From Strigamia acuminata (lineage: Eukaryota): 64,000 nucleotides of DNA. A model generated the notes under the pieces. It was not told where the DNA came from and ran no database searches. It saw only the letters and a program-made list of their open reading frames with translations. Location of the stretch: contig OX442314.1 of the NCBI GenBank assembly GCA_949358305.1, forward strand, positions 32,674,001 through 32,738,000. The letters are read 5' to 3'. Positions 17,957 to 47,900 of the stretch are shown here, one piece after another (positions within the stretch are counted from its first letter, which is position 1; the number at the start of each line of letters is the position of its first letter). Made by a program: the position numbers and the translations under genes.

Positions 17957-18606
17957 ACTGCTTTGCACACCGCTGTGTATTTCTGCTGATTTTTTAACAA
18001 CATTGGACGAAGCTAATAGTCAGATAAATGCTGTATACCGCATTGAGATATACAGTATATATACAGAAACGTTCTGTCTTGCATTCCGTTTCAGGTGACT
18101 TTATAATACAATTTAAGTTGAACACAATAAAGTCACCTCGTACTTGTTTATTATTTTTTTTAAAAAAATATTTGCATACAGTACAAATGCATGGATATCA
18201 AATTCGTTTTCGCTAATGGGTCTGTTGAATTCCAGTGTAGCAGGGTTGTAGTGGAGGGTACACGCGATGTCGTTTAGTGTTTGTTGCAGTGGTATTAAAA
18301 AATGTGCTTTTCCTTTTTATTTGGTTTGGTTGGAAAAATGAGTAGAAGCGACAGTAGTCTTTACTTTTATTTATTACAGGAAAACTATTTACGAAAAGAA
18401 TCTTGTTTGATTTGTCATAGTGTGCCTGCAAGTAAAACTTTGTACAGTAAATCAATACAAATAATTTTTGAATGATGAATATTTCAAGTTATGAATGTGG
18501 AGCCGCGTCTATCTTCTGCTGTACAACTATACTGGAATTGGATCCTTTCACGTATCAACGTCACTATTCTACGTCATTTCTGCTACAAAGAAAGTCGTTG
18601 CAGCTG

Positions 18607-20662: not shown

Positions 20663-20968
20663 CAGCTGTGTTGTTTTCCTTTTCCAGCGCATAGAAAAAG
20701 GTCAAAAGAAGAACATTTTGTTATTGGACCCGCCCTCAGGCTCGCCTCCAGGCCTCTGGTCAAGGCCTTGGACAGTCACGACATGTTTGTGGATGTAGAT
20801 TGAAGACACAGCATGCCAATTATTTCATAAGTTATTAATTTAAATCGAGTTAACTGGGCAACAGTTGCCAAAGCAAATCTCCAGCAAAATAATAATTAAC
20901 ATAGTGTGGTCGTGTATTTTGAATCGTGCATGTTGTGTTTAACGGCCAAGACGTGGACAACTTGGAGA

Positions 20969-23900: not shown

Positions 23901-26900
23901 CTTTGTTGGGGTCAAAAATGACCCGGGTTGGGTGAGGAGGGATTTTTTTTTAGGTTGGGGCTGCTAGGGTTAACCATTGAATGCAGCCTCTTGAGTCATT
24001 CCTTATTCTAGTTGTATGATTGACGGAAGTATGCTGTGATTACAACCCGCACCCATGTGCATTGGGCCGCTTCTATTTTTTATGTTCAAAAAATAAAATC
24101 ATAAAATTCGAACCCTAAAAAATGTTTTTAATCAAAATAAATGAATGCAATTTATAGAACAAACATTGGGCATTATTTTTTAAAAAAATGAAATTTTAAC
24201 TGAAATGGGCCAAAAGTTATGACCGTTTGAATTTGCGCTACTTGACACAAGTGTATTAGGCTACCACGCTAATTGCCTCAAGTGAGTTGGGCCGGCAGGA
24301 AAAGCTTAGAACCACATTAAGAAAATCACGAAACAAAAGCGGTTTCTTCAGAAAATCATTGTTTATTTGAACAATACTTTACAATATTTTGTTGAATGAG
24401 CAATATTTTATGTGTGATTGTGCAGGCCAAGTCAAAACCTAAATGTGATGGGTTTGGAAAACTGAGCAATTGACTTGACCTTATGTTTAGAATCATTTTC
24501 GTGCTGATATATCCATGTCAAAGGCAGTTTATCATCTGCAAATGGAAGCATAACAATCCTCCAATACTTTTTTATAAGTACAGATGTTGTTTTTAAATGT
24601 TATATTCCTCACCGCCAGGTGTTTCCCCACCTGTGTACCTGTATTTAGCACCGACCAATCAGTGCTCTGTAATGTATTTTGTGCTCTACGCACCTTCTCA
24701 CATATGTTTAAGATTAAATGAATCACTGTTAGAATATTCACCCAACAAGAACCACGCGTCTTTACTTTGTGTCTCCTAACATATTCAAGCCTAAAAACTA
24801 CAGGTTATGGGCCCAGCACGCTTCCACTGTGAATAATATCAAGATTTTGGAACGAAACGTTCGAGGAAGTTAAAACGTTTTTGACACGAACCGATTCGAG
24901 AAACAAACTTGGAAACGATGGCGAATGCAAGCGGAATTTTGGCTAGAATCGAACCACTAGGGAAAGAGAACTACGATGCGTGGAAAGTCCAAATGGAAGC
25001 AATTTTGGGGAAGAACGATCTCTTGAAGTACGCGGACGGAACATTGAAGCGACCAGAAGTTGTGCCAGGAAACAATAACACCAAGAAAGCCGCCGAAAAT
25101 TGGGACGCGAAGGACAGAAACACGAGATACGATATCTTGCTACACGTAAAACAGTCGGAGATTCGATTGCTAAAAAACTGTAAGACCTCAAACGAATTAT
25201 AGAAAAAATTGGACGAAATTTACGAAGCGAAAGGACCGGCAAATATGGGCATGTTGCTGAAACAAATTTGCGGAAACAAAATGGCTGAAAACGAAAACGT
25301 GCGTGACTATCTGAAGGGATTTTTTGAAGCCGTCGATAAACTACTTGACATGGATATGGAAATCCATCCGACACTTACTGGGACGCTGTTGTTGCAAAGT
25401 TTGCCGAAATCATTCGATACGTTCAAGATCACGATGGAATCGCGAGACACATTGCCGACGCTGGAAGCGCTAAAAGCTAAAATTATAACCGCAGCAATTT
25501 CTCAAGAAAAAGATAAAGAAGAAGTATCCGACGCAATGATAGCCAAGAAATCGTTCCAAAAACGGAGGCAGCCAAATGTGGAGTTTTTCGGGTCGACGGA
25601 CGATAACGATCGCCAGGGGGCAGGCGGACATAACGGAATATGTCCGAGAAACGTTTTGGAGACGATTCTTGTAATCAACCAATCAGGGTTGATCAGTGTC
25701 ATATATAATCAGTTTTGTTTGTTTAATAAAATCACTTGAATTTAACTAAGCTAGCGGTTGTGTCATGTTATTTTCGGGTCAGCTGTTTCTAGTTTTGAGA
25801 TAGTTTACATCAGAAGTGGGATAGAAGGATTCGATGCGACGATAGACGATAAAGTAGACGAAAGTAGAAGACGATTGTTTTTGGCGACGGAAGCAGAATT
25901 CGGAATTCGGGTTAGCAAATAGCGCGTGGATAGTTCGGGAAGCGAGAAGAGTCGATTCGCCGGGAAAAACACGTGTTACTTATTGATATGTAAAGTTTAG
26001 GGACAAGTGTTGTCACAGTCAGTTCCGATTTACGATGGAGAGATTACTTCGTGCGTTTCCGAATTAGCGCGATTGTCACGCGATTAGTATTTCATTGTAT
26101 CATGTCCCGGAATTGTAAATCAGTTGCTATTGTTTTTATAAATTGCGTGTGTATGTACCACAACTGATTTCCCTCCATATAATGACTTATTTAATCGTCG
26201 TCTGCTCAAATGAGCATTGTGTATTATAGAAATTTGTTCTGTCCTAAGTTGTGTTTATATTTTAATAGTGTACAGGACAAATCAACTAAATGAAGTATTG
26301 ATTTGTTCTCCCTATAGTTTGTGAGGTCAAATAACCTCAAACCACATGTTATGTTTTTCCACTGCAATAAAGATGGCGGCACAATTTGTGCTAGTAATGC
26401 AAAAGACTGAAATCAGGATTGGACTCACTTTATTGATTTAATGGCCTACAAGTGGTAGCAGAGGCTTGCGTGGGTGAGTTCCTGTCGAAATTCATACTTT
26501 CTCGGCGATTTTCCACGTCTGGAGCGGCCACGACGCACGGAAAACGAGGGGCGGGCGATACGAAACGTTTCCCGCACGTCGCCGAGCAGTGAAGTCCGCG
26601 AATTGCGACCCGAAGCAGGATCGATCGTTTCGGACAAATTTCGACCACAAACGGTGTTGAATCACCGTAGAATCAGCTGTATAAATAGCAGGAACACAGT
26701 GAAGTACTTTTTGCATTTATTTCGGCGTATTATAAGCCATTTTTCTTGTTTTCATTCGCACGATGACGCGTCATTTCAAAATGGCGGCGCCCAGTGCGAC
26801 CTGTGTTTAAGGACGGATTCGGGCTGTCATCGAGTCAACGTGTGGATCCCAGCGCTGGAATTAACGACGGGGGACCAGAAACAGACCCAAGGAATCGATT

Positions 26901-29900
26901 GGGACTGGTTTCGGGACGATTTGAAGAGGTTTTCGTCGAAAACGAAGCATTTTTCGCCAGCGGCGACCGGAATTAATTTCCACAACGTTTTCAAGACGTC
27001 GCTCGCCTATAACGAGTTGGATACGAACGTATGACGTTCGTACAACGACCAGAGCATCGGTACGGGTCAATTTGGATCGATATTTTCCATTTTTGGACGC
27101 GTTTCGTGCGACGAGCCGGAACGCATCGCGGATTTGCACGTGAAGTGTATCTGCGCATCGCTGGGACCGGTTAAGCCTTGTGCCAGGTGCACAAGTGAAA
27201 GCCAACGATTTCCAGCACTGAAAACATCACAACTTGCCATCTTCACATCATTTAAGTGTATATATTTGGGTTCGAAATTATTTGTGAATATTATTAAGGT
27301 TTTGTTTGGGCCCTTTAATATATTCGGCACCCTTTAGGCATTCGCCTAGTGTCGTCTTATTTTCGGCTAGGCTTGCTCGAAGCAAGGGGATTTTCCCGCG
27401 ACCCCAGGTGTGTCGGTCGGAGGTCCTTGTAGCGACTAGTCGGAGAAGTTGTGCTCACTTATTGAGCTGTACCCCGGGTGGAATTGTATTATTTTTCGCC
27501 TAATTTTTGGTGGGTTAAGTGTTATATTTTGCAAGTGTTGTGATTCTAAGTGATTTTGTGTATTGTGCTACGCATCGCATCATGGCTAGTGAAAATATGG
27601 AAGATTTTTCCAAGCCATTCAATGTAAACATTCGCAAACTTGATGGCAACAATTATGACTCATGGGCAGTAGATATGCAGCTCTATTTAGAGCACCAAGG
27701 AGTCTGGAGCCACGTTGTTGGAACTGAGCCAGCATTGGCCGTAACGGCCTCTCCGAAGGAGAAACGCGATTTTCAGGCACGCGAATCCCGTGCACGTTCC
27801 TCCATTTGTCTTGGCTGCACAGAAGCGCAAAAAGGGGTTGCTGTTGCACATAAAACAGCAAAGGGAGCGTGGGACGCGTTAAAAACGGCGTACCAGCCGA
27901 CCACGATGGCGCGACAAGCCAGGCTACGCCGGGAGTTTTTACAGCTCCAAATGCTTCCAGGGGACGACATGGTCGTGTTCACCTCTAGGGTGGACAGGAA
28001 GGCGATAGAGTTAAAGGACGTGGACATTACTTTAACGGAAAAGGAAATCGCGTTCCAATATTTGGATTTCCTCGGGCCTGAATACGAGGCTCTAAAATCC
28101 ATCGTGTACCACTGGGACAAAGCCGACTTCACGGTCGCGAAAGTCAAAGAAAGGCTCCTTGCTGAGTATAACAGGACCCATGGTGGGACTGCGCCGAGGG
28201 ATGCGACTGCATCTGCAACGGGAGCTTATGCGACGAACCCACAACGGTCACAGCAAAAAGGAACTGTTTGCTATAACTGCGGCGGAAAAGGACACTTTTC
28301 ACGCGATTGCCCTTCATCGAAACAGGGCTTTACGATTGTGCCGACCAAATCTGCATCGAACATTTCTCAGTCTCGTGGGCGCGGCAAAGGCCGTGGCCGT
28401 GCACGGGGAAGGAAAGCTAACCTGAGCTCTTCTGAGGAACTGGAAGGATTCTACACATCCCTTCAGCAGACTATTGGACAATCAACGACAACCGTGTCTT
28501 CATTTGTAACATCATCGGGGGTGCAAGACATGGCGTGGTACGTGGACACTGGTGCCACGGACCATTTTACCTTCACTAAACATGGTTTTGTGAATTATAA
28601 GCCTCTTTCAAATTATTCAGTGCGATTGGGTGAGGGTTCATCCAAAATTGATGGGGTAGGAGATATAAAGCTCGAATCAAGGGATAAATCTCAAGGGCAC
28701 CCATTCATATTAAAGAATGTGTTTTACGCACCAAATTTTACTAAAAATTTGATTTCCCTCGGTCGCACTGATGAGGCTGGGTATATAACCCGAGTTGGTG
28801 AAGGGAAAATGGTCATTTTCAAACAACGGATTACGGAACCAATACTGACCGCCATGCGTCAGTCGGATAGAATGTACAAGAGTTCTTGTCAGATTGCGGT
28901 TCCTTCTGTAAATGCAAGTGCAATTCCGACGCATGCGGAAGCACCTGGCATAAGTAATCCGATTACTAACCAATCAGATGTTACTGAAAGTGTTAATGTT
29001 GTAAATAATAGCGTTTTACCTAATACTAACCCGAGTGAATGCGTAACGCAGGCGAGCGAAATTACGAAACCGTCTTACTGTGAGGTGTTGACAACACCGA
29101 AGGGCATTAAGGGCAGTAAAACTCCAAAGACTTTAACTGTTTCCGGCGGAATTGACGTGAGTGCGCTTCCGGCCGACAGAGTTAAAGGGGTTCAACCTAA
29201 TGTAAAGGCAGATAAAGGGTTAGATATTAGTTATTGGCACGGCCGGATGGCACATTTACACACGAAGGGTATTGTTGACATGGAAAAGTCAACATATTTT
29301 TGGAGTGAAATTGTCTAATAAAGACATGGACCCGTGTGACGCGTGCATTAGAGCGAAAAAGACGCGTGCGGGGTTTCCTCCGATCGGACAAATTTTGACC
29401 AAAGGCATATTAGACCTTGTTCATATGGACGTCTGGGGGGCAAGCCAAACTAAAACCCTTGGGGGTGGGAATTATTTCCTACTTATAGTGGACGATTTTT
29501 CACGCTTTATGTGGATATACATCATGAAGAAGAAAAGTGATGTATTAGGGATTTTTAAGATTTGGCAAAAAGAGATCGAACGCTCTACATCTAAAAAGGT
29601 CAAAGCGGTACGAACTGACAGAGGGGGTGAATTTATATCCAAGGAATGGGAAGACTATGCTCAACAAGAAGGAATTAAATGCGAGCGGACGAATGCATAT
29701 TCGCCCGAAATGAATTCTGTGGCCGAGCGGGCCAACCGCCTAATCTTAGAGGGGGTGAGAGCAATGTTAATCGAAACGGGTCTTCCCAAGAGGTTGTGGG
29801 GAGAGTTAGCGGTAACTCTTGTTTATATTAAAAACTTATACCCACATCCGAAATTGAACAATCGTTCCCCCTATAATGTATTTTATAATAAAAGGGCTTC

Positions 29901-32900
29901 AGTTAGGCATCTAAGATGCATTGGGTCAAAGTGTTATACACATATCCCTGCCCAACAACGACATAGCAAATTAGAGCCAAGAGCTTGGGTTGGAGCCCTT
30001 GTAGGTTATTGTACTGACACAAAGGGATATCGCATCTGGGACCCATCGCGTAACAAGATTTTTGGGTCGAAACATGTTACCGTTAATGAGAATGAATACT
30101 GGTATGAAAAGGGGAATAACATTAATGGGAGAGGAAAGGAACAGTCACAGAGTTTTGAATACTTTAATGTGAGTGACTTGGGACTCGAATCGGACGATGA
30201 GACACCAATTCCAGTGAGATTGGCACCGGTTCATGTTCCTGTTCCTACACCAAGCCAACCTTCACCGGGTCTGGTTCCCCCGGTTCAAGTTCCCCCTGTT
30301 CCAGGTGCCGGATTACCTGCTCCAACGGTGCCCATTATATCAACAGCATTGCCAGTCACGAAACTGCCATTACCCCAGACCCCAAAACACACGGTTTTTC
30401 AAAAACCACGGTTAATCGAATTTACTGGAGAACCAACTGACGAAACCAGTGATGATGAAGAGGTTTTTCAGGAAGCATTGTTGGCTTCTCCTAATGTTAG
30501 AGGGGGTCAAGGGGATGTAACAATTGGGGGTGTTCCTTTATTGAAATTGAACATGAATGACTGGGATGTGAGACCATATGTTAGACAAACGGGAAGAGAT
30601 GCTGGGACGACCTATGCGCATTATGTAGCGCCAGACAAGAAAAGGCTCCGCAGCAGAATTGAGGCATTGCATTGGTGTCAAGCAAACGGATACGAGTTTG
30701 AGGCGGACTTGTTTGATTTTTCGGGGAAAACTCAAAATGAAGATCTTCCAAACCCATTTGCTGGTTGTTGTGCGCTTGAGCCCAACACCTACGAGGAGGC
30801 AATTAAAGGCGAACGAAGGACAGAATGGGTTGACGCAATGCAAGAGGAAATTGACATATTTAACGAAAGGAAAGTCTACGAGGAAGTTGATTGTGAGAAA
30901 GACCAACAATTGCTAGGCAGCAAATGGATCTATAAGATCAAGAGAGATAATACCGGGGTTATAAGACGTCATCGAGCGAGACTGGTCGCCCAAGGTTTCA
31001 AACAGCGACCGGGTATAGATTTCACCGAGGTGTTTTCACCTGTGGTGAATTTTGTTGTTATCTTGGTGTTATTTTGCATGTTGGTTGTCCTCATGAACTG
31101 GAGAGACACACATGCGGATATAAAAGCCGCATATCTCTATGGAGACTTGGACGAAGTCCAATACATGGGAATTCCAAAAGGGTTTCAAACGCCACAGAAT
31201 GTCGGCAAGTGCTGGAAGCTTTACAAAGCTTTATACGGCCTGCACCAGTCGGGCCGTATGTGGTTCGAAAAGTTGCACGACAGACTGTTGCACATAGGAT
31301 TCAAACCGGTCCCTGGGTTTAACTGTGTTTATTGTATGGACAGAGATGTAGTTTTAGTCGTGTATGTCGATGACTTAGTCATCTTTTCACGCAACGAGAA
31401 GATCGAAAAAGATGTCCTGTCCTGGATAACAGACCATTTCCAAATGGTAAACCTTGGGCCAGTGACCCTTTTGCTAGGCATAGAATTTACGCGTGTGAAT
31501 GGTAAGATCTTAATCCATCAGCGCAAGTATATCGAGAGATTGTGTGCTCATTTCAAAATCGATGGGTCGCATAAAGTTCATTTACCTGGGGCGGTAGGTA
31601 CTATGATAATGGGGGTGAAGAAGGACGAACAAATTGACACCGTGTTCCCCTACAGATCGCTGGTTGGTAGTCTTCTGTTTTTGGCGTCGCGAACCAGACC
31701 AGACATACTATTTTCCACCATTGTGCTCTCCCAATACAACGAGCGACATTCTCAGAGACATGTTAATATGTTATTGCAGGTACTCAGGTACCTGAAAAGT
31801 ACTGAGGATTATTGTATTGATCTCTCGAGATGCAAAAGTGCTTTGCTGACGGTATTTACCGATGCGTCATACGCTACTGATGTAGACCAACGAAGGAGTT
31901 TCGGAGGTCATGTAGTTTTCCTGGGCGGTGTTCCGGTTTCGTGGTCGTGTAGAAAGCAGAAGATGACCACGTTATCCGTGATGGAGTCGGAGTTTGTGGC
32001 CATTGTTGATGGCGTCAGGGAACTGATATGGCTTAAGAGGCTTTTCAACATGTCGGTGATGTTCGACTACTTTGGGAATTTGCAGCCCTGTGTCTTAGCT
32101 GATAGCACAGCGGCAATACAATATAGTAAGAACCGCGTGGAAAATAAAGCGAACAAACACATCGAGGTTCGATTCCATTATTTACGCGACCTGTATGAAA
32201 GCAAGATCTTTGATATCCGGCACGTTCCTGGAAAACTGAACGTAGCCGATTTGTTAACCAAATGGTTGGCTCGCCCACGTCTGACCGAATTGTGTGAGCA
32301 CATCTTTGATCTGTGACAAAGTTGTCCAGAGGGGGTATTGATATGTAAAGTTTAGGGACAAGTGTTGTCACAGTCAGTTCCGATTTACGATGGAGAGATT
32401 ACTTCGTGCGTTTCCGAATTAGCGCGATTGTCACGCGATTAGTATTTCATTGTATCATGTCCCGGAATTGTAAATCAGTTGCTATTGTTTTTATAAATTG
32501 CGTGTGTATGTACCACAACTGATTTCCCTCCATATAATGACTTATTTAATCGTCGTCTGCTCAAATGAGCATTGTGTATTATAGAAATTTGTTCTGTCCT
32601 AAGTTGTGTTTATATTTTAATAGTGTACAGGACAAATCAACTAAATGAAGTATTGATTTGTTCTCCCTATAGTTTGTGAGGTCAAATAACCTCAAACCAC
32701 ATGTTATGTTTTTCCACTGCAATAAAGATGGCGGCACAATTTGTGCTAGTAATGCAAAAGACTGAAATCAGGATTGGACTCACTTTATTGATTTAATGGC
32801 CTACATTACTAAGGTTAGCCGAACCACGATCAAAAATGGCCGGAGCAAAGACAATCGTGGCGAAAATCAGACGCGGGGAATTCCCAACGGAGGCCGAGTG

Positions 32901-35900
32901 GGACAAACTAAGAGCCAAAGATGTCCAGCCACTGTTGATAGAACGGAATATCGTGCCGCCGAGATTGAAACGAGATATGATAAACACGTTGCGACTGACC
33001 ATGATTGCAGAGCTAGGACTCGCGGAAGAAGACGTGAATCCAGGAGACGAAGATGACGACGGAAAAGACGACGAAGAGAACGACGAAGAGAAAGACGAAG
33101 AGAAAGTAGAAGACAACGAACAGCGGATTTAGTGCGGATCAAATGCAAATGCAAATGCAAATGCAAATGATGCAGATGATGAAGATGATGCAAGATATGC
33201 AGACGAAGTCGACGGCACCAAAAGATACGACGGAACCAAAAGAAGTTAAAAACGCACCAAAATTGCCACGATTCTCGGGCGAACGAAGCGAGCTGCGTAC
33301 GACCACGCAGTGGTTACAAGACGTTCGCGAATACGCCAAAGAGTACAAGTGGACGAACGTAACTACGGTGACGACGGCGGCAGCAGCGTTAGAGGGGCCA
33401 GCGAAGGTGTGGCAAGACGGCGCGGGAACGACGATCCGGAACTTGTCGTACAAAGACAAAGAAAAATTGATTCGAGCACCGCAGAAGAACGACGAGACCA
33501 CCGAAACCTATCTACGACAAAAGTGGGCCACATGCGAACGGTTGGGAATGTCGATCAACGACGCGCAGAATTACCTGTTGGACGGATTAAAGAGCAAGTC
33601 AGCAATGGCGCCGATGTACGTCGTCAACTATCAACACATCAGCGATATGGTTGGAACGGCGCAGAACTTGGAAGCGCGAGCGAAGGGGACGACGATCGAA
33701 GCGAAGTCGAGGCCAAGCGTGGCGAAGCCGAACGGAAGGGGATTCGACGCAGGGCCGAAGTGTTTTAGGTGCGGCGAGAAGGGGCACCAGAAATCAGATT
33801 GTCCAAACGAGCTGAAGTGTTTTAAATGTCACGAATCGGGCCATCTGGCGAATGCGTGCCCAAATGGAGTAAAATGCTTCAATTGTAACGGATTTGGGCA
33901 CATGGCAAACGCGTGTCCAGAGCCGAAGAAAGAGCGGAAGCAGCCATCAAAGGACAAGTTGGACGTTAAGACGAAGAAGATTTGCAAAATCGAGGCCGAG
34001 GAGATGCAGCCAGAATTCGAGACCATGATGTGGGTCGATGGAAAGAAATGCAGCGCGGGAATCGATACGCAAAGCGCCGTGTGTCTAATTAGTAAGACGT
34101 TTTCGCAACGTACAAAGATCGAGGAGCCGGACTACGAATACGTGATCGAAGGATTTAATCAAGATGCAAGTCGGTATCGTGGGCGAACGAGATGTGATGT
34201 GGAAAGCGCAAACGTGAAATTGGCGGGTGTCAAGTTCTACGTGGTCGACGACGCCAGAATGCCGACGGAAGTCTGGATAGGGAAACCATTCTTAAAACAC
34301 CCGACGATCACGATGCAATCAGACGGAGGTTACGTAACGTTCAGACCGAGGGAGGGGATGCAAGACGAATCAGGAATTTCAAGAATCGAGCCAAAGATCA
34401 CTGCAGCAAAGCCACGAGCGCTCGTGATCAACGAGAACAAAGTGGTACCAGCCCACTCGATAAGTTTGGTGACAGTACGAGCGAAGAGTCAGTCAGACCG
34501 GTTGTTTTACGTAGAAAACGAGCGCGCAGTGACGGATCGATTGGAAGTACCGGAAGGCCTGATCGAAGTGAAGAACGAGCGAGCAACGATGCCGATAATC
34601 AACAACGGACCAGAAGAAGTACGAGTCACACGAGGTCGTAAGCTAGGGCACGTTGAAATTACCGAAGAAGAACCATCGTTGCACCACTTTCCGTGCCCCA
34701 GGATGGATGAGTTACTCGACGAGACGCACGAATGGCGAGTTTTTCTAGTGTTCGATTTGGCGTCGGGTTACTACCAGATCGAATTGACGGCCGGAGCGCA
34801 AGAGAAGACAGCATTTTCGACAATGAACGGCAAATATCAGTTTGTGCGGATGCCGTTTGGGTTGATAAACGCGCCGTTTGTTTTCAATCGAGTGATGGAG
34901 TTGGCGTTCGGACATTTGCCATACGAAGTACTGCGCAGATATATGGACGATCTTCTATCGGGTGCGAAAACGAACATGGAGCTACCGTATATACTCGCAT
35001 ATAGTGCGAAATATTTATGCTAAAATTAGTCCCTGTGTTTGGGGGGGTCGCACTATACGCGAGTAATCAAAAAAAAAAATATTAACGTAACGTACATATT
35101 ACGTTTTGTATTTCGTCCATATTGCGGGCGCATTTCGACCTTCGGCCATCGCTTACAACACACAACACAACAATACAACCTACCGACAATCCAACCCAAT
35201 CCAACCATCCAACCGAACAACAATCAAATAATGCAAGAATCCAACAAAATTACCTTTCACCTAAATAAATAAACTTTTCTTTATCATTTTTCCATTGTTG
35301 TGGCACACCACTACGGTAACTCGCATTATACGCGAGTACACCATTTATTGCAAAAAAGGCGCCTTAAAGTGGGGGGGTCGCATTATACGCGGATCGCATT
35401 ATACGCGAGTATATACGGTAATCGAGAAAATGCGGAAGATCTTAATCGAGGTGAGAAGATCGAAGCTGACGTTGAAATTGAGCAAGTGCCACTTTCTCTG
35501 CGAGGAGGTGCAATTTCTTGGGTTGCGACTGACGAAGGACGGCCTACGACCAGGATTCGAGAAGGCGAGCGCAATCAGAAATTTCGCGAAGCCAAAGGAC
35601 GTACGCGGAGTGAAGAGTTTCCTAGGGTTATGCGGATACTTCCGACGATTTATCGCGGGATATGCGACAAAAACGAGGGCGTTAACGAAATTGACTCGAA
35701 AGAACGAAACGTTTGTGTGGACGACTGAGAGTGAAGCGGCGTTTCAGGGGTTGATTGGAGAATTGATTGCGGAGCCAGTGTTGAAGATCTACGATAACAC
35801 ACGACCGTGCGAGGTGCATACGGACGCATCACAAGACGGGATTGGGGCAGTTTTAATGCAGCGAGGCGAAGGAAACGACCTGCATCCGATTATCTACGCG

Positions 35901-38900
35901 AGTAGAACAACGACCGAATGCGAGAAGCGATACCATTCAACGGAGCTCGAGTTAATGGCGGTGGTTTGGGCGGTATTGAAATTCCGGATGTATCTGTACG
36001 GCGCGGAATTTACGGTGGTGACAGATTGCGAAGCGGTACGATACGGACTGAAGAAACGTGAATTAACGCCACGAATCGGGAGATGGGTATTGGCGCTTTC
36101 GGAATACAATTTCAAAGCGATACATCGACCGGGATTGCTTATGGGGCATGTCGACGCCCTGAGTAGGAACGCAGAACCAGCAATTGGCGAGGAAACGGAG
36201 ATGGAACGACGGTTCAAAGTTAACCAAATTAAATTTACAGAAGGCGACTGGCTCGTGGCTGCGCAAGAAAACGATCCCGAGTGTAAAGAGTTGAAGGACG
36301 CGTTGTTGGTAGAAGATAAAGATTTACTAGACGAACGAATGCAGCACAAGAGCCGAGGATATAAGATCAAGCGAGGACACGTTTATTTCGAATTAACAAC
36401 GAACGGGCGGCGAAGAGATGTGTTGTATCTGCCGAAAATGATGCGGAGACAGATTACGAGCGAGGTACACAACGGACACGCGCATCCGGGAGTTGACGCA
36501 ACAATCGAGGCGATTCGGAAGAGATTTTGGTTTCCCAGGATGAGGAGTTACGTGAAAGCGACCGTAGGAGCGTGTATCGTGTGTTTGATGGGTAAAGAAC
36601 CCGGAGGAAAATGAGCAGGCGAGCTGAATATCATCAAGAGACAAAGGGTGCCGTTCCACACTGTTCACCTGGATCATGTGGGCCCCTTTCCGAAGAGCGG
36701 CATTGGGTATCGACACATTTTGGTGGCGGTATGCAATTTCTCGAAATTAGTTTTTCTGATGCCGGTAATGTCGACAAACGCGATGACTACGTGTAAAGAA
36801 ATCCGGAAGTTATGCGCACGAATGTGGATCCCGACGCGGATCATTACAGATCGAGGAACCGCGTTTACCAACACATTATTCGCGGAAATGTGCAAAGAAC
36901 TCGAGATTCGACACGTGCTGACTTCGACGGAAAATCCAAGAGCAAACGGGCAGGTGGAAAGGATGAACCGAACAATAGTTCCAATGTTGGCGAGCCAAAC
37001 GACAAAAGACGACGGGAGCGATTGGAGCAAAGGGATTGACAAGGTCGAAATCGCGATTAACTCAAGAATCAACCAGTCGACCAAGAAAACGCCACTGGAG
37101 GTGTTGTACGGATTCCAGCCAAGAACGATCATCGAGCCAAGATTAGCGGCGATAGTAGTCGAAGAAAACAATGAGGAAGAAACGGAAATCGAAGATGTGA
37201 GGAACGAAGCATACGAGACACTGACAACGAACCAGATCAAGCAGAAAAAGGCGTTCGACCGACATCAAGGACCAAACCGGACATACGAGGTCGGGGACAT
37301 AGTCGTCGTGCGAAGAAAAGCGATCGCAATACAAGGCAAGGCGGGAAAGCTTAGTAATTTGAACCGAGGACCATTGCGAGTAAGCCGGCGGATTTCGAGT
37401 ACCGTGTACGAGGTTACAAGTCTCGAGAACCCGCCTCGATACACAACGACCGCACCAATCGACCAGATGAAGAAATGGACATTTGAGGACGACGCAGCAT
37501 CGGGAGCCGAAGACGAGTTAACAGGTGTCGGCGGGGACGCCGACATTTAGTCGGATGACCGAGTGTGGAGTTTTTCGGGTCGACGGACGATAACGATCGC
37601 CAGGGGGCGGGCGGACATAACGGAATATGTCCGAGAAACGTTTTGGAGACGATTCTTGTAATCAACCAATCAGGGATGATCAGTGTCATATATAATCAGT
37701 TTTGTTTGTTTAATAAAATCACTTGAATTTAACTAAGCTAGCGGTTGTGTCATGTTATTTTCGGGTCAGCTGTTTCTAGTTTTGAGATAGTTTACACAAA
37801 GAACGGCGACGATGAATCGGATTCTGATGAAAAGCCGACTTTTAAATTTAAATGTCACGGTTGCGGAAAAATCGGACATAAAATCGCGGATTGTTGGAGC
37901 AAGAATAAGAAGGAAAGCGCATCGAGAGCCGAAATATCTAAACACGACGCGTATTGTTGTGAATGGATGGAAACAGCGATGAAATGCGAAGCACCAAAAT
38001 CAAAGAAATGGCGTTTGGACAGCGGCGCCAGTTCACACAAGCGTTCGGACGAATTGACATTCACAAACATTGAAGCATTGAAGAACCGAAAATTGAATTT
38101 GGCCAGTAATGCGAGCACGAAAATCGACGGAAAAGGAAATGTAAAAATCGAAATCGGTCCCGAAAGTGACGATTTACATTTGAAACTGGAAGAAACGTTG
38201 CTGGTACGTGACTTACAAACGAATTCGATGTCCGTCAGAAATATTACCGATTGAGGCGATAAAGTTGTTTTTACGGCGGAGAACACGAATACGGAAGTCG
38301 AGAAGACGAGAACCGGGAACGTGAAGACCGAAAAGGCAGGCACGGAAGTCAAGAAGACGAGAACCGAGAAAAAGAACACATGTACGGAAGTCAAGAAGAC
38401 GAGAACCGAGAATAAGAAAGCATGTACGGAAGTCGAGAAGACGAGACCCAAGAACGTAAAAATTTGCGAATGGCACGAGAAGCTCGAATACGAATTAATT
38501 TTGAAGAAACTGAAAAACGACGTTGCTAAACAAATAGATCGAACATTAATGAAAATGGCGCGATGTATGATTTTGCAGTCGAGTGAGAAATCGAATGTGG
38601 AACTAGACGAGAACGAGAACGAAGTTGAAATTTCCGAGAACAAGAACGAAGTTGAGATTTCCGAGAACGAAAACGAAGTTGAAATTTCCGAGAACGAGAA
38701 CGAAGTTGAAATTTTCGAGAACGAGAACGAAGTTGAAATTTCCGAGAACGAGAACAAAGTTGAAATTTCCGAGAACGAGAACTAATTTGAAATTTCCGAG
38801 AACGAGAACGAATTCGAGGTTTCTTGATGAGGTAAAACGGTCCTGTGGCTCTCGGAAATCAGTGGAAACGCAATTACAAAGTGCGGTTAATTCGCAACAC

Positions 38901-41900
38901 GCGACCGCCATCTTTATTCACCGTGAGAACATAAAACAGTGGTCTGGGTTGAGGCTATATAATCTCAACCTTGATTACAGATCAACAAGGAGAACAAATC
39001 TATTATCACAATTGAATAGATTTATTCTTTACAATAAAACATAGGCTAAAGTAATGGATAAACAATACCAAACATAACTAAAGTATCGTCGCTTAACAAG
39101 CAGACGACGGGAACGCACGTTATCAAGTCGACACAGCCAATTGCGGTACAGAACAAGCTTATAGATAAAAATCAAATCAATTGGCTGACCATTCGTAACA
39201 ATACAAGACAACGCGCTTGTTGTGCTTATTCGGAAATACACAACTGATAAACTTATCGCAAATCGTTCATCGTAAATCAACAAATCCCCCCTTCGATGAA
39301 CTACTTTGCTGCTACAAAAATATGCTCGCACAATGCGTCTAGTTTTGCGCGAGACAGCCACTTGGTCATAAGATCGGCCACATTAAGGGTTCCCGGGATG
39401 TGTCTGATTCGAAAGACACCCTTTTCAAACCAGTCGCGCACGAAGTGTAGTTTAACATCTATGTGTTTGTTTGCGCGATTCTCTATGCGATTCTTCGCAT
39501 ATTGGATCGCTGGCATTGAGTCAGCGTATACACACGGTATTTGCCGGTTAAACCCATCCATCATCACGTCAGCACCAAATATGCGCTCTAACCAAATTAT
39601 TTCCTTCACACCGTCTACCACCGCCAAGAATTCGCTCTCCATAATGGAAAGTGCAGTGATGGTCTGCTTATGGCAGTTCCAAGAGATCGGGACGCCTCCC
39701 AGGTAGATGATGTGCCCACCAAAGCTCCGACGTTTGTCCTGGTCTAATGCGAAGGACGCATCCGTATAAACGGTCAAGTTTTCACTTTGACAGTTTCCAA
39801 GATTGATGGAATAATTTGGCGTATTCCCTAGGTATCGCAAGATTTGGAGCAGCATATTCACGTGTCGAGTCGAGTGAGTCTCGTTGTATTGAGACAACAC
39901 TATCACCGAAAACAGAATATCGGGTCTTATACGACTTGCGATGAAAAGCAAACTGCCGACAAGAGACCGATACGGAAAACTCGAATTGACACGTTCCCCC
40001 GTTTGAACCTTTTGGATCATGGTGCCTGGGGTGCCAGGTACTCTAACACGATGACAAGAGTCGATCCCATATTGCTTGCACAACTTCGCAATATAAGCGC
40101 GTTGATGAATAAAGATATTCTCCCCGTCCCTACAAAACTCTATCCCTAACAAAAGGGTGACGGGGCCCAAATTGACAATCTCAAATGATTGTTGAATCCA
40201 ATCCAAAACGCACTCCTCTGCTATGTTGTCTTTTGAAAACAATACAATGTCATCGACATAGAAAATAAGTATAGCGTCAGTCCCCAAGCTATACACGCAA
40301 TTGAGACCCAAGACCGGTTCAAATCCAATTTCAATCAGCTGGTCGTGGAGTCGCTGGTACCACATACGACCAGACTGGTGAAGTCCGTAAAGAGATTTTC
40401 TCAATTCCCAACATTTGTGTTGGTTTTCAGATGTTCGATATCCCTTTGGAATATGGATATATTGCACTTCGTCGAGGTCCCCATATAAATATGCGGCCTT
40501 GATGTCGAGGTGTACGTCACGCCAGCCCCTCAGTACCACTAAGATACAAAAGAACATCATGACTAACACAAAATTGACTACCGGGGAAAATACCTCAGTA
40601 AAGTCAATGCCCGGCTTTTGCTTAAAGCCCTGTGCAACAAGACGAGCACGATATCTTCTAATCGTACCCGTGTGATCTCTTTTTAACTTGTAAATCCATT
40701 TTGATCCCAATAAGGTTTTGTCTTTAACCTGGTCTTTGTCGACTTCGACATAAACCTCACGTTCTTTGAAAATGTTTATTTCGTCCTCCATTGCGTTTTC
40801 CCAATCTGGTTTACTAACTCCCGTTACGGCCTCCTCATACGTGTCTGGCTCGACAGAGCAGCAACCAGCAAAACCAATAGTGACATCTTTGAAATTAAAC
40901 AATTCTGATCTGTATTCGTATCCCTCGGTTTTACACCAACGAACAACCTCAACACGGCTGCGGAGCTTCTCGTGCTTTGGTGTGATGTACCAAACATCAA
41001 CTTTCCCAGCTGTTGCCCCACTTTGGCGTACAGTCTGTCGTCTTTGCCATAAAGTCATGTCTAAAGGCAACAATTCACTAGTTGAAGCTGTACGTTCGCC
41101 AGTGTCTTTCCCTTTTCTAGGCGGGTTGCGACGAGGGAGTGTAGGCGACAATTGAGGTGATAACTGAGGACTTGCGTCTGGGTCCTCAACTTCCTCGCTT
41201 TCATCTTCGTCGTCGGGATAAATGTTGAAGAAATCCCTATTATCCCCCTTCGCCCCACCGATTTCGTCATCATTTATAACATTTAAATCCCCAATGATGT
41301 ATTGCATTGCATCAACATAGTTGAAATCCTCAGGTGCCCCACCCTCAACGGGGTCTTCTTCCCCTTCTCCTTCAGGATATTCGGGTATGGGGTCGCCGTG
41401 GACACTATCTGTCTCCGAGACAGAGTCATCAAAAGAATCCTCACCCGACGAGTCTGAATCGTCAGTGAAAGGCGAGGGAGTCAGTTGGGGATTCTGGAGA
41501 TTTTCATACCAGAAATTCTGTTCTAGAATTTTAACATGCTTAGAGAGGAAAACTTGGTTTCTATTCGGATCCCAAATCCGATACCCACGAGTGGTAGAGG
41601 CGTATCCAATCAAAGCCCCCGCCCATGCTCTTTCTTGCAATTTTCCAGCTCTGGTTTGTGAAGGGACATGTACATAAGTCAATGCACCAATGCACTTGAC
41701 GTGGCGTAAAGACAATTTCTTATTGAAAAACACATTATAAGGTGTCCTCCCACCCAATCCCGCATGCGGAAACCGGTTCTTTAAATAAACGACAGAAACT
41801 GCGAGTTCTGCCCACAGGGATGGAGGAAGACTATTTTCAATCATTAAAGCTCTGATGCCACCAAGAATGGTCCGGTTCGTTCTTTCAGCGACCGAGTTCA

Positions 41901-44900
41901 TCTCAGGGCTGTATGCGTTCGTTCGCATACACTTCAGTCCAATGCTACTGGCATATTCATCCCATTGTTTGGATACAAATTCCCCTCCATTGTCAGTTTT
42001 AATTGACTTGACTTTCCTAGAAGTCGTTCTTTCAATTTCGGTTAACCACTTCTTAAAATGGCCCAAAACTTCGCTCTTTTTCTTCATAATCACGATCCAC
42101 ATTAATCGTGAGAAGTCATCGACCATGACCAAATAGTAGTACGCCCCACCTATGCTCTTAACTGGTGAAGGGCCCCACACGTCTAAATGGACGATTTCTA
42201 AAATCCCTTTGGTCGAAATGTTCGCAATGGGGGGAAAACTGGCACGTGTGCTTTTCGCCCTCGAACAAGCATCACAACTCGACAATTCCGTGTTGGACAA
42301 CTTTAAACCAAATACTTCGGTAGATTTGTTCAATAATGCAATTCCCTTCGCATTAAGGTGTCCCATACGAGAGTGCCAGATGTCCATCGTTTGGGGTTTG
42401 TCTGGTTTAATGGAAGCATCCTTTCCATCTACAACCCCATTTCCATTTGTTAAATTGTTTTGCACAATTGTTTTCAAAATTTTCGCATTCTTGGGCTTAT
42501 TGCCCTTGCTGGCCACTAAGCTAGTCTGTGTGTCGGTTAAAACACTCGATTGTTGATTCGAAATTTCCATACTCGCATTGTTTGCAACGATCGCTGGCGC
42601 ATTATTCGCAGTTTTCGTTTGCCCCTTATTCGCAGGTACAGGTTTCCCTGATTTACTCAAATTTTGGGTTAATGCGGTCTTAAAATTTAAATGGGTTAGT
42701 AAAGGATCAACAATTTCTCCACCCTTTAAAGGTGGACTAGATGCCACTGTTGCACTCTGTTGCGCAGACAATGCAACAGTGTTTACAGAATTTTTAGGAT
42801 TAATTCGACAATTGACCTTGTACATTCTATCACTCGTACGTATCGCAGTGATAGAAGGATCATCAATTGTCACATCATAAATAAACATTTTACCATTTTT
42901 AACCATTGTCGTAGCCCCAGCTTCGTCCGTGCGACCTAAAGAAATTAAATTCTTTTTGAAGTTGGGTGCATAATAAACGTTCTTCAACGTCAGTTCACGT
43001 GTACGTTGTCCATGAATCGAGATTAATGTCACATTTCCGATGCCCTCGATTTTCGACTTTCCGTCGCCTTGTTGCACAGAATAACCAGTTAATGGTTTAA
43101 AGTCCGAAAACCAGGATTTGTTAAACGAAAAATGGTCCGTCGCACCTGTGTCGACGTACCATTGCGAATCGTAGTTCGCATGTGATAATAACGACACTGC
43201 AACCGGAGGTTGCTCCTGACAAATCGCTGCAGAGAAGTAAGACACGGGGGAATCGCTGAAAATGTCCATTTGTGTGACGGCGGCCTTCTGCTGGCCTTTT
43301 CCACGATTTTTCCCTCGTTGACTTCCCCTGCTGAACTGTCCTATCGGGTTTCCTCTCGCAGCACCTTGTTGCTGTTTAGGTGGAGAAGGGCATTCCCGGG
43401 CGAAGTGGTTGGTTCCACCACAATTGAAGCAGACACGTGGAGAACCGGAGACATTTCCACCCCGGCCACGTTGCCATCTGCCTTTGGTGAAATAGGCACT
43501 TGCATTATCCACCATGCCTGCAGGAACCCCAAACTCATCTGTTTGTTCATAAAGGCGATTATATTCGCCTAATAATCGTTCTTTGACGGCCTTGGACGTG
43601 AATTCTGGGTCTCCCCAGTGGTAGACAGTCTGCTTGACCGTTTCGTATTGATGTGGCAGCAGATCCAGGTACTGAAAAGCCAGGAATTCGTCAGAAATGT
43701 CCACTTGGATGTCCTTTAACTCCAGGGCTTTCCTGTCAACTCTTGCCAAGAAGACCATCATCTCTTCTTGCTCATGGAGTTTCAACATGAGAAATTCGCG
43801 ACGAAGCCGGGCTTTGCGTGCCCTGGTAGTGGGCTGGTAAGCTGCTTTGAGCGCTTCCCAAACCTCTTTGGCCCCTTCGTGTGCCACAGCCACTACCTGT
43901 TGGGCTTTTCCACAAGCCAGACAAATGGTGGAGCGCGCTTTCTCCTCGCGCTTGTCAAACTCCCTGATTTCTTTCGCAGAAGCCGTGGCTGGCAAGGCTT
44001 TCTCCTTGCCAGTCACGTGGCCCCAAACTCCATACGACTGCAAAAGGAGTTGTATTTGGACACTCCAAGTCGAATAATTAGTCCCATTCAGTTTTTCCAC
44101 ATCCTTGTAATCGTCACGACGATCCCAACTTGCCATGTTGAGAAAATTCGGCGAAAACAGAAGCACGAATCACTTTTCACAAAAAAATTTCACAAATTCC
44201 CGCAGGAAAAACACAAATATTCACAATGCACGTGAATATGGCGCACGGAGAAGCAATTTGCCCCCAAAAATTGAAGGCGAAATAATTTTACACTTCCCAA
44301 GGGGCACCTCAATAAGTGAGATGAAAAACCCAAATCTGGTCGCCCTACTAGCTTCCGACCGGCCCACCTGGGGGACGCGGGACGACTAGTTGGCCACGGA
44401 CAAGCCCAGACTGGAATGAGACTGTACTGGGGCGACTGCCCGAAGGGTACAGAATATTCTAAGTGACCCGACACAAAAACCTTAATAAATAACAGAGTTT
44501 CACGAGAAAAATTCGAAAAATACAGTTTTTGGTGTGAAGTTGGCCAGTTACGGGTTCCACGCGTCGTAACTGGTTCCCACGCTGGATTAAACGTCGGCTT
44601 CACGTTGTCTTCGCACGGAATCGGCTGACGTGCAGTCCGCGTACACACATCCGTGTAAGCGCGGAGAAAATCGTCGTAGCGCCCGTCTGCGCCTTCGTAC
44701 TCGCTTTCCTGGTGCGAGATACGGAAACAATTGCCCACACACACGCTTATCGTGTGCAGGACTTCTCGGTGAATCAAATCGTCGTTTTTCCGTCTATTTT
44801 TGACGAAAAATGGCCGCCGTAACAAAATCGTCGATTCACGGTGATTTCTCGAAAAAAATGACGGTTTTGGGACGTTTCTGTGCTCCAAAATACCGTCCTG

Positions 44901-47900
44901 TCGACGTATTCCGTTGTAGAATCGTCGGGCGTACGTGTGCCGGTCCGTACACACGCGTGGACACACTAACTCCGCCGTATTCTGCAGCGAAGCTCAACAA
45001 AAATGGCGCCGCCCGAGAAAACTCGGTTATATCGGCAAAAATACAGTTTAAATCGTTCGAAATAAATGTTCCTTACACCGTTCCGTGTCGAATCCTTCGT
45101 GCAATCGTCCGCACACGTATTCCAGACGTTTGCCGCACCGAAAATTCGTTTTCACGACGAATTGAGCGGGCGCGCACTTCGCGACTTCTCGTAGTCGGAA
45201 AATGGCCGTTTCACTCGTCAATTCCCCGAAATTGGTCGGCGTTGATCGTCGCCGATCCTCTGCTACCATTTGATGAGGTAAAACGGTCCTGTGGCTCTCG
45301 GAAATCAGTGGAAACGCAATTACAAAGTGCGGTTAATTCGCAACACGCGACCGCCATCTTTATTCACCGTGAGAACATAAAACAGTGGTCTGGGTTGAGG
45401 CTATATAATCTCAACCTTGATTACAGATCAACAAGGAGAACAAATCTATTATCACAATTGAATAGATTTATTCTTTACAATAAAACATAGGCTAAAGTAA
45501 TGGATAAACAATACCAAACATAACTAAAGTATCGTCGCTTAACAAGCAGACGACGGGAACGCACGTTATCAAGTCGACACAGCCAATTGCGGTACAGAAC
45601 AAGCTTATAGATAAAAATCAAATCAATTGGCTGACCATTCGTAACAATACAAGACAACGCGCTTGTTGTGCTTATTCGGAAATACACAACTGATAAACTT
45701 ATCGCAAATCGTTCATCGTAAATCAACATTTCTGAGAACGAAAATGAAGTCGAAATCGAGATGAATGATGAAGTCGAGAACGAGACGGAACAAGGGGAAG
45801 TCGAAACTCCCCAGATCAAAAACGTACGGCCGCCTCCGCGACAATCCTCAAGAACTCGGAGATTGTATTCAAATCGAAATGGAAAACCACCAGGAAGAAT
45901 TCGATATGAAGAGTATTAATTAATAAAACAAAATTTTTGAAATGTAGGAATATTGTCATTCAGGGGAAGTGTTGTTTTTGAATGTTATATTCCTCACCGC
46001 CAGGTGTTTCCCCACCTGTGTACCTGTATTTAGCACCGACCAATCAGTGCTCTGTAATGTATTTTGTGCTCTATGCACCTTCTCACATATGTTTAAGATT
46101 AAATGAATCACTGTTAGAATATTCACCCAACAAGAACCATGCGTCTTTACTTTGTGTCTCCCAACATATTCAAGCCTAAAAACTACAACAGAATATATTG
46201 GTCCATGATACCCTTAATTTAATGTTGTGGACCGATACACACACAGGAAACCATCCTTAAGCCATTTTACTCTTGGGATGGCTTTAGTTAATGTAATTTT
46301 GATTTTTATTATTAAAAAATATTATTTCTATCATTGAAATGAAGTTTTATGCACATATAAATGTCAAACTCATGTTTGTTATGTTTGTCTGGCTGTTGCC
46401 TAGGCAATCAATTACAATGTCTGTACATTGCTTGCAATTCTGGAGTTTGGCTCTACTTTTACGGATCACTACACCAGTAAACTGGCTTGACCAATAGAAC
46501 TGAGTGTCCTTTTTGATTGCAACTAGAGTATATTCTCCAAATTTGAAAGCTCTGACAACATTTACTTAAGTGCAAAAGTGCAGTGTAACAAAAAATGTGG
46601 AATCACTTATATTGACTTAGGTTGCATTGCGTCAAGGCATTCTGGAAAACAATTTCAATAATAATTAAGGGTTTCCAATGTTGATTGCAGGGACGATGTA
46701 AAGCTGAATGGTGCAACTGCATTAAGGACTCTTGTTTTCACCATGGTGATGCTAAGGGATACAGTTTTACCGTATTTGACATTGCCGAGTCACCTTTTAT
46801 TGTAAATGTATTCTTTGTACTATGTTATCCCAGAGGAAAATGTGGTGATCGCCAGATGGCGACGGGGATGTCATCACGTCAGCCGTGGCTCTGGTCACAA
46901 TTTAATAACCAATAGTAAAGGTACTCTTGTACATATGGTGCAAGAGTGGCAGTATACTTCCTGTTGGGACCCCAGAGCTACTCAGCTATTGATAAGTCCT
47001 AGCAGTTCTCCACTCTTGTTCATCGCGGTGATAACAGGGAATGTGCGAGTACGCCATTCCCAGTGCTATGAGTAATCCATGGGTTAAGGGACTGAGTCCT
47101 GGATGAACAACAGACCGACCTTGCAGCACAACCGAACCACACGTGCTGCATGTGGTTGCAGGTGCCCTGCAACCGGGGTCGGATCAAGCCTTTTGGGAGC
47201 CCTGGGCTTGAGGTTTTTTCAGGGCTTCTTTATCAAAATTTTTAACAGCAACCTTTTTTTTTTAGTACATGCGTTGTGTCTTGGGTTGTAGATCCGCCCC
47301 TGGCTTAGGCGTAGCAGTAGCAATAGGAGAGGCAAGAGGTAGTGACTCCTATACACTGAATAAAGGCCTTAAACCAGGGTTTCCCAAACGGTGAGGCACG
47401 CCTCACTGGTGGGGCGTGATTATTGGTGGGGCGCAACCCATCATACATGCCTAAATAAAACGAGCTTATTTTGCAAACTTTTGTAAATTTTTAAGCAAAA
47501 TTATATAAAATTATATAAAAAATTATACAAAGTTTTATGCAAAATTATATAAAAATTTCTTTTTTTTCTTTTTAGTAGTATATTTTTTAAAAATTTAATG
47601 CATTGGTAGATGGGAGTGGGGCGCAGAAGACCGCCTTGCTTAAAAAGTGGGGCGCGATGCTAAGAAGTTTGGGATCCCCTGCCTTAAACTATTAAATACA
47701 GTCGCTTGTGCTTGTTTCTATCAATGTGTTGTGCGTCCGGCGCTGTTTCTGCATTTCTGTGCGCTATTTGTGTCCGTCCGTTCTCACAACATGACAGTTT
47801 CATTGGTGATGTGCTGTGGAATGAGGTTGAGGGATGGTTTTTTGCGGTGTCAAGTACACTCCTATGCCATACTTGCCCAAAGCAATATTAATAACCAGAA

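What the first reader, a model, noticed from the sequence alone, without database searches (positions are those of the whole stretch)
40891..41070. Intact, very young Copia retrotransposon encoding a methyl-CpG-binding domain at the integrase C-terminus
Seen: between the integrase core and the RT start (FAGCCSVEPDTYEEA), Copia B reads LPLDMTLWQRRQTVRQSGATAGKVDVWYITPKHEKLRSRVEVVRWCKTEGYEYRSELFNF. Established: this fits the MBD fold consensus W.R....R.SG..AGK.DV.Y..P....RS..E...FDF. Equivalents of MeCP2 W104, R111, D121 and R133 are retained, and Y123 is W. The element has one 1611-aa ORF, identical LTRs, PBS, PPT and TSD, so it is plausibly active. Inference: the MBD sits where chromoviral integrases carry a chromodomain and could tether integration to methylated DNA. 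From memory, MBD-carrying Copia elements were reported in the centipede Strigamia and in spiders (de Mendoza et al., Genome Research 2019), so the architecture has precedent; these particular families may be new.
Basis: partly seen in the sequence, partly recalled or inferred. Interest (0 to 1): 0.9.

Follow-up and report, generated by a model that had tools for sequence, protein, structure and literature searches.

The report
Young Copia carrying a methyl-DNA reader
An intact, very recently inserted jumping gene carries a methyl-CpG-binding domain between its integrase and reverse transcriptase, which makes it a new family of the already described CopiaMBD elements; the domain likely steers new copies into CpG-rich, probably methylated DNA, although it has a tryptophan where most relatives have the methyl-sensing tyrosine.

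Summary
Confirmed, and of a known kind. 40891-41070 (minus strand) encodes a real MBD: Pfam E=1e-9, and a confident model whose top structural matches are MBD4, MeCP2 and MBD2. It lies between the integrase SH3 domain and the RT of an intact Copia (1611-aa ORF, identical 458-bp LTRs, PBS, PPT, 5-bp TSD). In an RT/RNase H tree it shares one branch (SH-aLRT 100) with the published Stegodyphus CopiaMBD, so it is a new family of CopiaMBD (de Mendoza 2019), not a new architecture. Its nearest relative is Copia A in the same window (64% identical). Both sit nested in other young LTR elements, at CpG-dense sites. The unusual part is the reading surface. B keeps both arginine fingers and the Asp but has Trp at the conserved Tyr (1 of 80 MBDs collected here; 0 of 22 published). 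A has lost both the Asp and the Tyr. Listed MBD variants are mostly synonymous (13 of 15). Methyl-CpG binding, attachment to integrase, targeting, activity and the host species are not shown.

The parts
40891..41070 (-). MBD of Copia B (aa 1023-1082; Pfam match aa 1030-1083). R1037 and R1059 are the arginine fingers; D1047 is kept; W1049 (nt 40990-40992) replaces the conserved Tyr
39301..44136 (-). Single uninterrupted 1611-aa Gag-PR-IN-MBD-RT-RH ORF of Copia B
45271..45728 (-). 5' LTR of Copia B, 458 bp, TG..CA, identical to the 3' LTR
38825..39282 (-). 3' LTR of Copia B
45255..45268 (-). Primer-binding site, 2 nt inside the 5' LTR; initiator-Met tRNA type (assignment recalled, not from a call)
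39283..39293 (-). Polypurine tract abutting the 3' LTR
38820..38824 (.). Left copy of the 5-bp target-site duplication
45729..45733 (.). Right copy of the 5-bp target-site duplication
43384..44052 (-). Copia Gag domain and CCHC zinc knuckle
42916..43161 (-). Aspartic protease (DTG motif; Pfam Pol_BBD)
41905..42399 (-). Integrase zinc finger and catalytic core (D-D-E motifs present)
41506..41727 (-). Integrase SH3-like domain
41071..41505 (-). Acidic, poorly conserved linker before the MBD (27% Asp+Glu; 19% identical to Copia A)
40852..40887 (-). 12-aa spacer between the MBD and the EP..Y.EA motif that opens the RT; likely holds the IN/RT cleavage site (inferred)
39361..40731 (-). Reverse transcriptase (YVDD) and RNase H
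25981..32805 (+). Copia A, sister CopiaMBD family: identical 470-bp LTRs (25981-26450, 32336-32805), 5-bp TSD, same PBS type; reading frame broken near 29.3 kb
30544..30729 (+). MBD of Copia A; both arginine fingers kept; Asp, Tyr and the Lys before them replaced
24585..46187 (+). Host element Copia C: LTRs 24585-24802 and 45970-46187 (98.2% identical), 5-bp TSD, gag and protease remnants, no IN/RT found; Copia B is inserted in it
25577..37796 (+). Gypsy element (LTRs 99.1% identical, 4-bp TSD) inserted in Copia C; Copia A is inserted in it

Best explanation
Copia B is an intact, very recently inserted member of the CopiaMBD retrotransposons, and its MBD likely stays on the tail of integrase and likely tethers the integration complex to CpG-dense, probably methylated DNA such as other transposons. 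Shown: the MBD fold, its place after the integrase SH3 domain and a long acidic linker and 12 residues before the RT start motif, membership in the CopiaMBD branch, constraint on the domain, and nested insertion of both A and B in CpG-dense LTR elements. Inferred: the protease cuts between MBD and RT, as Ty1 and Ty5 carry their targeting domains on integrase, in Ty1 at its C-terminus; R1037 (held by D1047) and R1059 read the two guanines of a CpG and stack on methylcytosine; Trp1049 removes the Tyr hydroxyl that bridges to methylcytosine through water, so affinity or methyl selectivity is probably lowered, as for MBD3, rather than lost.
For: Domain identity. RT+RNase H tree: 42 MBD-bearing rows form one side of a branch, SH-aLRT 100, against 18 rows without; the branch includes P0024, whose MBD matches the published Stegodyphus CopiaMBD row. 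FastTree on 70 rows agrees (0.979). Three Strigamia domains bind natively methylated, CpG-dense DNA by DAP-seq (PMC6673714), and B shares their long loop after the first arginine finger (by eye). Constraint: 13 of the 15 listed differences inside the MBD in contigs of three runs are synonymous, against 33% expected for transitions, p=3e-5 (35 further rows were not shown). The MBD is 43% identical between A and B while the linker is 19%. The arginine fingers carry most of the mCG recognition: in MBD2, R166K and R188K cut binding about 30- and 8-fold (PMC8600091), whereas MBD3 with Phe at this slot still binds mCG about 5-fold more weakly than MBD2 (10.1101/338061). The 150-bp flanks hold 9.3 (B) and 9.7 (A) CpG per 100 bp against a window median of 3.7, the 93rd and 94th percentiles. 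The Ty1 targeting domain lies in the integrase C-terminus and Ty5 integrase has a Sir4-binding targeting domain (PMC9673352).
Against: No binding, cleavage or methylome data exist for this element. Trp at the Tyr slot occurs in 1 of 80 MBDs gathered here and 0 of 22 published CopiaMBD rows. Human BAZ2A, which binds DNA regardless of methylation, also has Trp there, though it lacks both arginines. The sister family A has lost both Asp and Tyr yet is as young, and it sits in an equally CpG-dense site. The flank signal rests on 2 insertions, and 1 of 3 MBD-less LTR elements in the window has similar flanks (8.3 per 100 bp). Signs of methylation in this host are weak: window CpG O/E is 1.09, and CpG transitions between repeat copies are 41 of 148 against 104 of 586 for the pooled controls (odds ratio 1.8, p=0.008), not significant against GpC alone (p=0.12). 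The MBD diverges faster than IN or RT (43% against 63-65%). The 2019 paper itself did not prove tethering or rule out cleavage.
Confidence: 0.55

Rival explanations
1. Retuned reader: the B and A domains still tether integrase to DNA but read CpG-dense DNA with little regard to methylation, or read another mark (TpG, hydroxymethyl-C). Each family would have moved away from the ancestral Asp/Tyr surface in a host with modest transposon methylation.
For: B has Trp and A has Tyr/His at positions that are Asp/Tyr in nearly all relatives. Both keep the two arginines that give CpG specificity (PMC8874921). Both domains are conserved and both insertions are in CpG-dense sites. CpG decay in the window is weak. 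A neighbouring sub-branch (P0006, P0008, P0010, P0011, P0014, P0017) has lost the second arginine as well, so the surface is changeable in this part of the tree.
Against: B keeps R1037, D1047, K1045, R1059 and S1060 and is among the most MBD1-like domains in the set. Loss of the Tyr hydroxyl in MBD3 weakens but keeps mCG preference. In a MeCP2 selection two clones without Tyr123 still bound mC/mC.
Confidence: 0.25
2. The MBD binds methylated DNA but does not act in target choice: it is released from integrase or works elsewhere, for example competing with host MBD proteins. The nested, CpG-rich sites then reflect survival after insertion.
For: The authors of PMC6673714 could not reject this. 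Nesting in other transposons is expected from selection alone. An MBD-less Gypsy in the window has equally CpG-rich flanks. No cleavage site was mapped, and the long linker could be cut.
Against: In every MBD-bearing polyprotein examined the domain sits just before the RT start (10-69 residues in the 48 where my pattern found the motif), on the same side as the Ty1 targeting domain. Opposite genomic biases in centipede and spider fit targeting better.
Confidence: 0.15
3. The domain is a decaying relic with no present function.
For: Key residues are changed; A scores only at the Pfam cut-off (21.0 bits).
Against: 13 of 15 listed variants in B's MBD are synonymous; the fold is predicted with high confidence; 43% identity is kept between families whose linkers have diverged to 19%.
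Confidence: 0.05

Closest known systems
CopiaMBD retrotransposons of Strigamia maritima and Stegodyphus (de Mendoza, Pflueger and Lister 2019, PMC6673714)
   Same: Same domain order with the MBD between integrase and RT in one ORF; same RT branch as the Stegodyphus element P0024; purifying selection on the MBD; CpG-dense flanks and location inside other LTR elements.
   Different: A new family: its best database relatives are about 51% identical in the RT region, and the Stegodyphus element about 42%. Trp replaces the Tyr found in 22 of 22 published rows; the sister family A lacks Asp and Tyr. Binding is untested here. No Strigamia RT could be placed in my tree by name.
Host MBD1/2/3, MBD4 and MeCP2 methyl-CpG-binding domains
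   Same: Same fold (rmsd 1.2-1.8 A over about 55 residues for several hits) and the same arginine fingers and Asp.
   Different: Fused into a retrotransposon polyprotein, with no repressor-recruiting domain seen; Tyr replaced by Trp.
Ty1 and Ty5 integrase targeting domains; chromoviral chromodomains
   Same: A module on integrase that biases where the element inserts (the chromovirus analogy is stated).
   Different: Those bind host proteins or histone marks, whereas this would read DNA directly. Chromoviruses are Ty3/Gypsy elements, whose integrase ends the polyprotein (recalled).
BAZ2A TAM domain
   Same: MBD-like fold with Trp at the same slot (row).
   Different: BAZ2A lacks both arginine fingers and binds regardless of methylation; B keeps both.

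Membership tests
Ty1/Copia LTR retrotransposon | Order Gag-PR-IN-RT-RH with an RVT_2-type RT | tested here: met
   (RVT_2 E=2e-52; rve before the RT)
Ty1/Copia LTR retrotransposon | LTRs, PBS, PPT and TSD | tested here: met
   the tRNA type of the PBS is recalled
CopiaMBD | Pfam MBD between integrase and RT in the same ORF | tested here: met
CopiaMBD | RT falls in the same clade as published CopiaMBDs | tested here: met
   anchor P0024 = published Stegodyphus MBD row. Midpoint root only; no named Strigamia row in the tree
CopiaMBD | MBD under purifying selection | tested here: met
   13 of 15 listed differences synonymous; not a full Ka/Ks
CopiaMBD | Methylcytosine-recognising Tyr kept (the paper says 'in most copies', so typical rather than strict) | tested here: not met
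   Trp in B, His in A
CopiaMBD | Preferential binding to methylated CpG | not testable with these tools
   needs DAP-seq or EMSA
CopiaMBD | Insertions biased to CpG-dense or methylated DNA | tested here: inconclusive
   2 of 2 at the 93rd-94th percentile, but 1 of 3 MBD-less elements at the 88th; no genome held
MBD fold (PF01429) | Profile score above the curated cut-off and structural match | tested here: met
Canonical methyl-CpG-reading MBD | Two arginine fingers and the Asp that fixes the first | tested here: met
   B: R1037, D1047, R1059. A keeps the arginines only
Chromovirus | Ty3/Gypsy RT and a chromodomain on integrase | tested here: not met
   Copia-type RT, and Pfam finds an MBD at this place; analogy only

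The most novel reading that the evidence does not exclude
Two sister CopiaMBD families that are mobile in the same genome have each rebuilt the methylcytosine-reading surface (Trp in B; loss of Asp and Tyr in A) and now read CpG DNA with a changed specificity, methylation-blind or tuned to another cytosine state. They would be natural variants of an epigenetic reader evolving to fit a host methylome, in a clade much wider than the centipede and two spiders first reported.
Probability: 0.2. Interest if true: 0.62.

Novelty: new member of a known kind. Interest (0 to 1): 0.36.

Why it matters
CopiaMBD is known from one paper in the library searched, and its central claim, that the MBD directs integration, is still unproven. 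A multi-copy young family with two naturally diverged readers side by side gives a cheap comparison: do Trp and Tyr/His variants still read methyl-CpG, and do their insertion sites differ? The homologue searches also show the clade in Araneus, Trichonephila clavipes and Parasteatoda; the last two were among the genomes screened in 2019 and were not reported to hold it. The architecture and the mechanism themselves are not new.

Tried and rejected
No genome is held, so no genome-wide insertion survey was possible. Sequencing runs: 3 holders, all contigs; no RNA holder listed, which says nothing on expression. The host could not be placed: the nearest polyproteins are unnamed ENA, JGI or Logan records, the Helitron search gave 2 uninformative hits, the search of shorter proteins gave 1 RT fragment, the Atlas does not hold B and returned generic Copia clusters for the Araneus homologue, and 13 of 16 other window frames had no Pfam match. 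An arthropod host is likely only because all named Copia relatives with an MBD are spiders and the published ones are arthropods. Joints that skip B or A in contigs come from other copies of the host elements or tandem repeats and were rejected as evidence of an empty site. Contig depth on B is several times that of the lowest unchanged contigs on the Gypsy (about 700-2000 against 120 in X1), a hint of multiple copies only, since depth is not copy number. The single-sequence fold of A's MBD failed (pLDDT 40), and its PDB sequence matches are individually weak (E 0.08-0.8, though all 23 are MBD-fold chains). P0147, the top hit, scored high through internal repeats and is not a close relative. 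The designed Ika proteins are chance matches. No listed paper (15 of 44 shown) contained Y123W or Y34W. No tRNA genes in the window.

Full report
Observation. Pfam gives Gag, zinc knuckle, protease, integrase zinc finger and core, SH3, MBD (aa 1030-1083, E=1e-9, 38.3 bits, cut-off 21) and RVT_2, in that order. All protease, integrase, RT and RNase H motifs that I looked for are present (13 of 13). The LTRs match exactly. The exact run is 459 bp, but its first base belongs to the TSD on one side and the PBS spacer on the other, so the LTRs are 38825-39282 and 45271-45728, 458 bp, TG..CA, with a 5-bp TSD, a PBS 2 nt inside the 5' LTR and a PPT. Zero differences in 458 bp bounds LTR divergence below 0.65%. 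The initiator-Met assignment of the PBS is recalled.

The domain. Against PDB sequences, 29 of 31 hits are MBD-fold chains, the best being MBD1 at E=1e-7; the other two are designed repeat proteins. A model built on a 33-row alignment has mean pLDDT 88.6. Foldseek ranks MBD4, MeCP2 and MBD2 first; the Foldseek-independent search ranks MBD4 first at Z 7.8, rmsd 1.7 A over 59 residues, and its top ten rows are all MBD-fold. W1030, R1037, D1047, W1049 and R1059 fall on MeCP2 W104, R111, D121, Y123 and R133 without gaps.

Surroundings. The window is nested transposons with no host gene recognised. A short Copia (C; LTRs 98.2% identical) holds a Gypsy (99.1%) and Copia B (100%); the Gypsy holds a second Copia, A (25981-32805; 100%). 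Each has its own TSD. Copia A also carries an MBD, at 30544-30729 (Pfam 21.0 bits, at the cut-off; my own profile E=1e-18). A's frame is broken near 29.3 kb; contigs of three runs differ from the window there, so the break may be particular to this copy or to the assembly. A six-frame profile search finds only these two MBDs in the window.

Relatives. Of 122 proteins in hand after the first search (the window's two included), 42 carry an MBD by an iterated profile; a second search added 38 of 141. For the RT+RNase H tree I picked 60 of about 290 proteins: 41 with an MBD, P0014 (added by eye for an MBD remnant) and 18 without. The 42 form one side of a branch with SH-aLRT 100, midpoint-rooted, and A and B are sisters (100; 64% identity). 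FastTree on 70 RT segments agrees (0.979; 5 short rows and 47 MBD-less rows left out). The branch includes P0024 from Stegodyphus mimosarum, whose MBD matches the published CopiaMBD row. Other named members are from Araneus ventricosus and Trichonephila clavipes, and a Parasteatoda protein has SH3-MBD-RT (not placed in the tree). B's nearest database relatives are unnamed and about 51% identical in the RT region. The host stays unidentified.

What is known. PMC6673714 describes CopiaMBD in Strigamia and two Stegodyphus species: one clade, MBD next to integrase, Ka/Ks below 0.1, DAP-seq preference for methylated CpG-dense DNA, and flanks richer in CpG and methylation than other LTR elements; it proposes targeting but does not prove it. 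I read parts 1-4 of 7 of the main text, parts 1, 42, 43 and 164 of the table supplement, and passages of the figure legends; the figures themselves and the RT alignment were not visible. It is the only paper holding the word CopiaMBD in the library; searches listed no later survey. Other papers were seen as passages only: 10.1101/338061 (54), PMC8874921, 10.1101/2021.11.30.470311 (70), PMC9673352, PMC7343188, PMC8600091.

What differs. The methylcytosine-sensing Tyr is present in 22 of 22 published CopiaMBD rows and 66 of 80 domains gathered here; Trp occurs once, in B. That set has many near-copies, 3 rows with a gap at the slot, and one host-like protein (P0282). A keeps both arginines but has Tyr for Asp and His for Tyr. 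[quoted passage not shown] BAZ2A has Trp there and ignores methylation, but it lacks both arginines. B is therefore likely a weaker or less selective reader, and A more doubtful. Neither looks dead: 13 of 15 listed differences in B's MBD among contigs of three runs are synonymous (p=3e-5 against the transition expectation; 35 further rows not shown), and the MBD is 43% identical between A and B against 19% for the linker and 63-65% for IN core, RT and RNase H.

Mechanism. The MBD follows the SH3 domain and a 145-aa acidic linker and ends 12 residues before the RT start motif; in the 48 relatives where my pattern found the motif the gap is 10-69 residues. Ty1 carries its targeting domain in the integrase C-terminus and Ty5 integrase targets Sir4. 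I infer a cut between MBD and RT, leaving a DNA reader on a flexible tether at the end of integrase. Local evidence is consistent but thin. The 150-bp flanks of B and A hold 9.3 and 9.7 CpG per 100 bp (93rd and 94th percentile; median 3.7), while three MBD-less LTR elements give 8.3, 4.3 and 0.7; with 500-bp flanks B falls to the 81st percentile. Against a strongly methylated transposon compartment, CpG O/E is 1.09 overall and 1.5-2.2 in parts of the host elements, and CpG transitions between repeat copies are only modestly raised: 41 of 148 against 104 of 586 in 12 pairs (one redundant pair of the 13 dropped), odds ratio 1.8, p=0.008, but p=0.12 against GpC alone. Transposon methylation varies widely among arthropods.

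Verdict. A real and well-preserved example, correctly read by the first stage, but a new family of a published system. The residue changes in two co-resident young families and the wider spider distribution are the new points; they make an open question testable but do not yet show a new function. Earlier notes of this scan hold nothing by sequence or place and by words only MBDs on other transposon types, which I did not test.

Noticed in passing
window 25981-32805 (+), MBD at 30544-30729: A second young CopiaMBD family (A), sister to B, with identical 470-bp LTRs starting TA rather than TG, a broken frame near 29.3 kb, and an MBD lacking the Asp and Tyr.
   Followed up: yes
window 24585-46187: Four LTR elements nested in order of LTR identity (98.2%, 99.1%, 100%, 100%). 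The outer Copia C is short, with gag and protease remnants and tandem repeats but no IN or RT found: probably non-autonomous.
   Followed up: partly
proteins P0029, P0035, P0158, P0255 (Araneus), P0044, P0147, P0273 (Trichonephila clavipes), P0186 (Parasteatoda): CopiaMBD-type proteins occur in spiders not reported in 2019; Nephila clavipes and Parasteatoda were in that study's list of genomes searched.
   Followed up: partly
proteins P0006, P0008, P0010, P0011, P0014, P0017 (unnamed): A well-supported sub-branch near A and B whose MBD-like domain has lost the Asp, the Tyr and the second arginine finger but keeps the overall pattern; possibly a change of function.
   Followed up: partly
window 44137-45270 and 26451-27581: Both CopiaMBD elements have a long (about 1.1 kb) CpG-rich 5' leader (O/E 1.5-1.6), which could itself be a target for their own MBD.
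   Followed up: no
window 57410-60094 (+): Partial Helitron ORF (DUF6570, Helitron_like_N) with 7.7 perfect copies of a 63-bp, 21-aa repeat at 58208-58694.
   Followed up: partly
window 52452-54490: About 188 copies of an 11-bp satellite with strong strand skew.
   Followed up: no
window 5364-10789: Another, broken Gypsy element with 95.5% identical LTR-like repeats.
   Followed up: partly
window 18601-20668: Large imperfect inverted repeat built of 13-bp units around a 10/20-bp tandem array: a foldback- or MITE-like element.
   Followed up: no
window 21647-21732: Short degenerate TTAGG-type array, resembling the arthropod telomere repeat (recalled).
   Followed up: no
window 61203-61778 (-): 191-aa ORF without a Pfam match.
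   Followed up: partly
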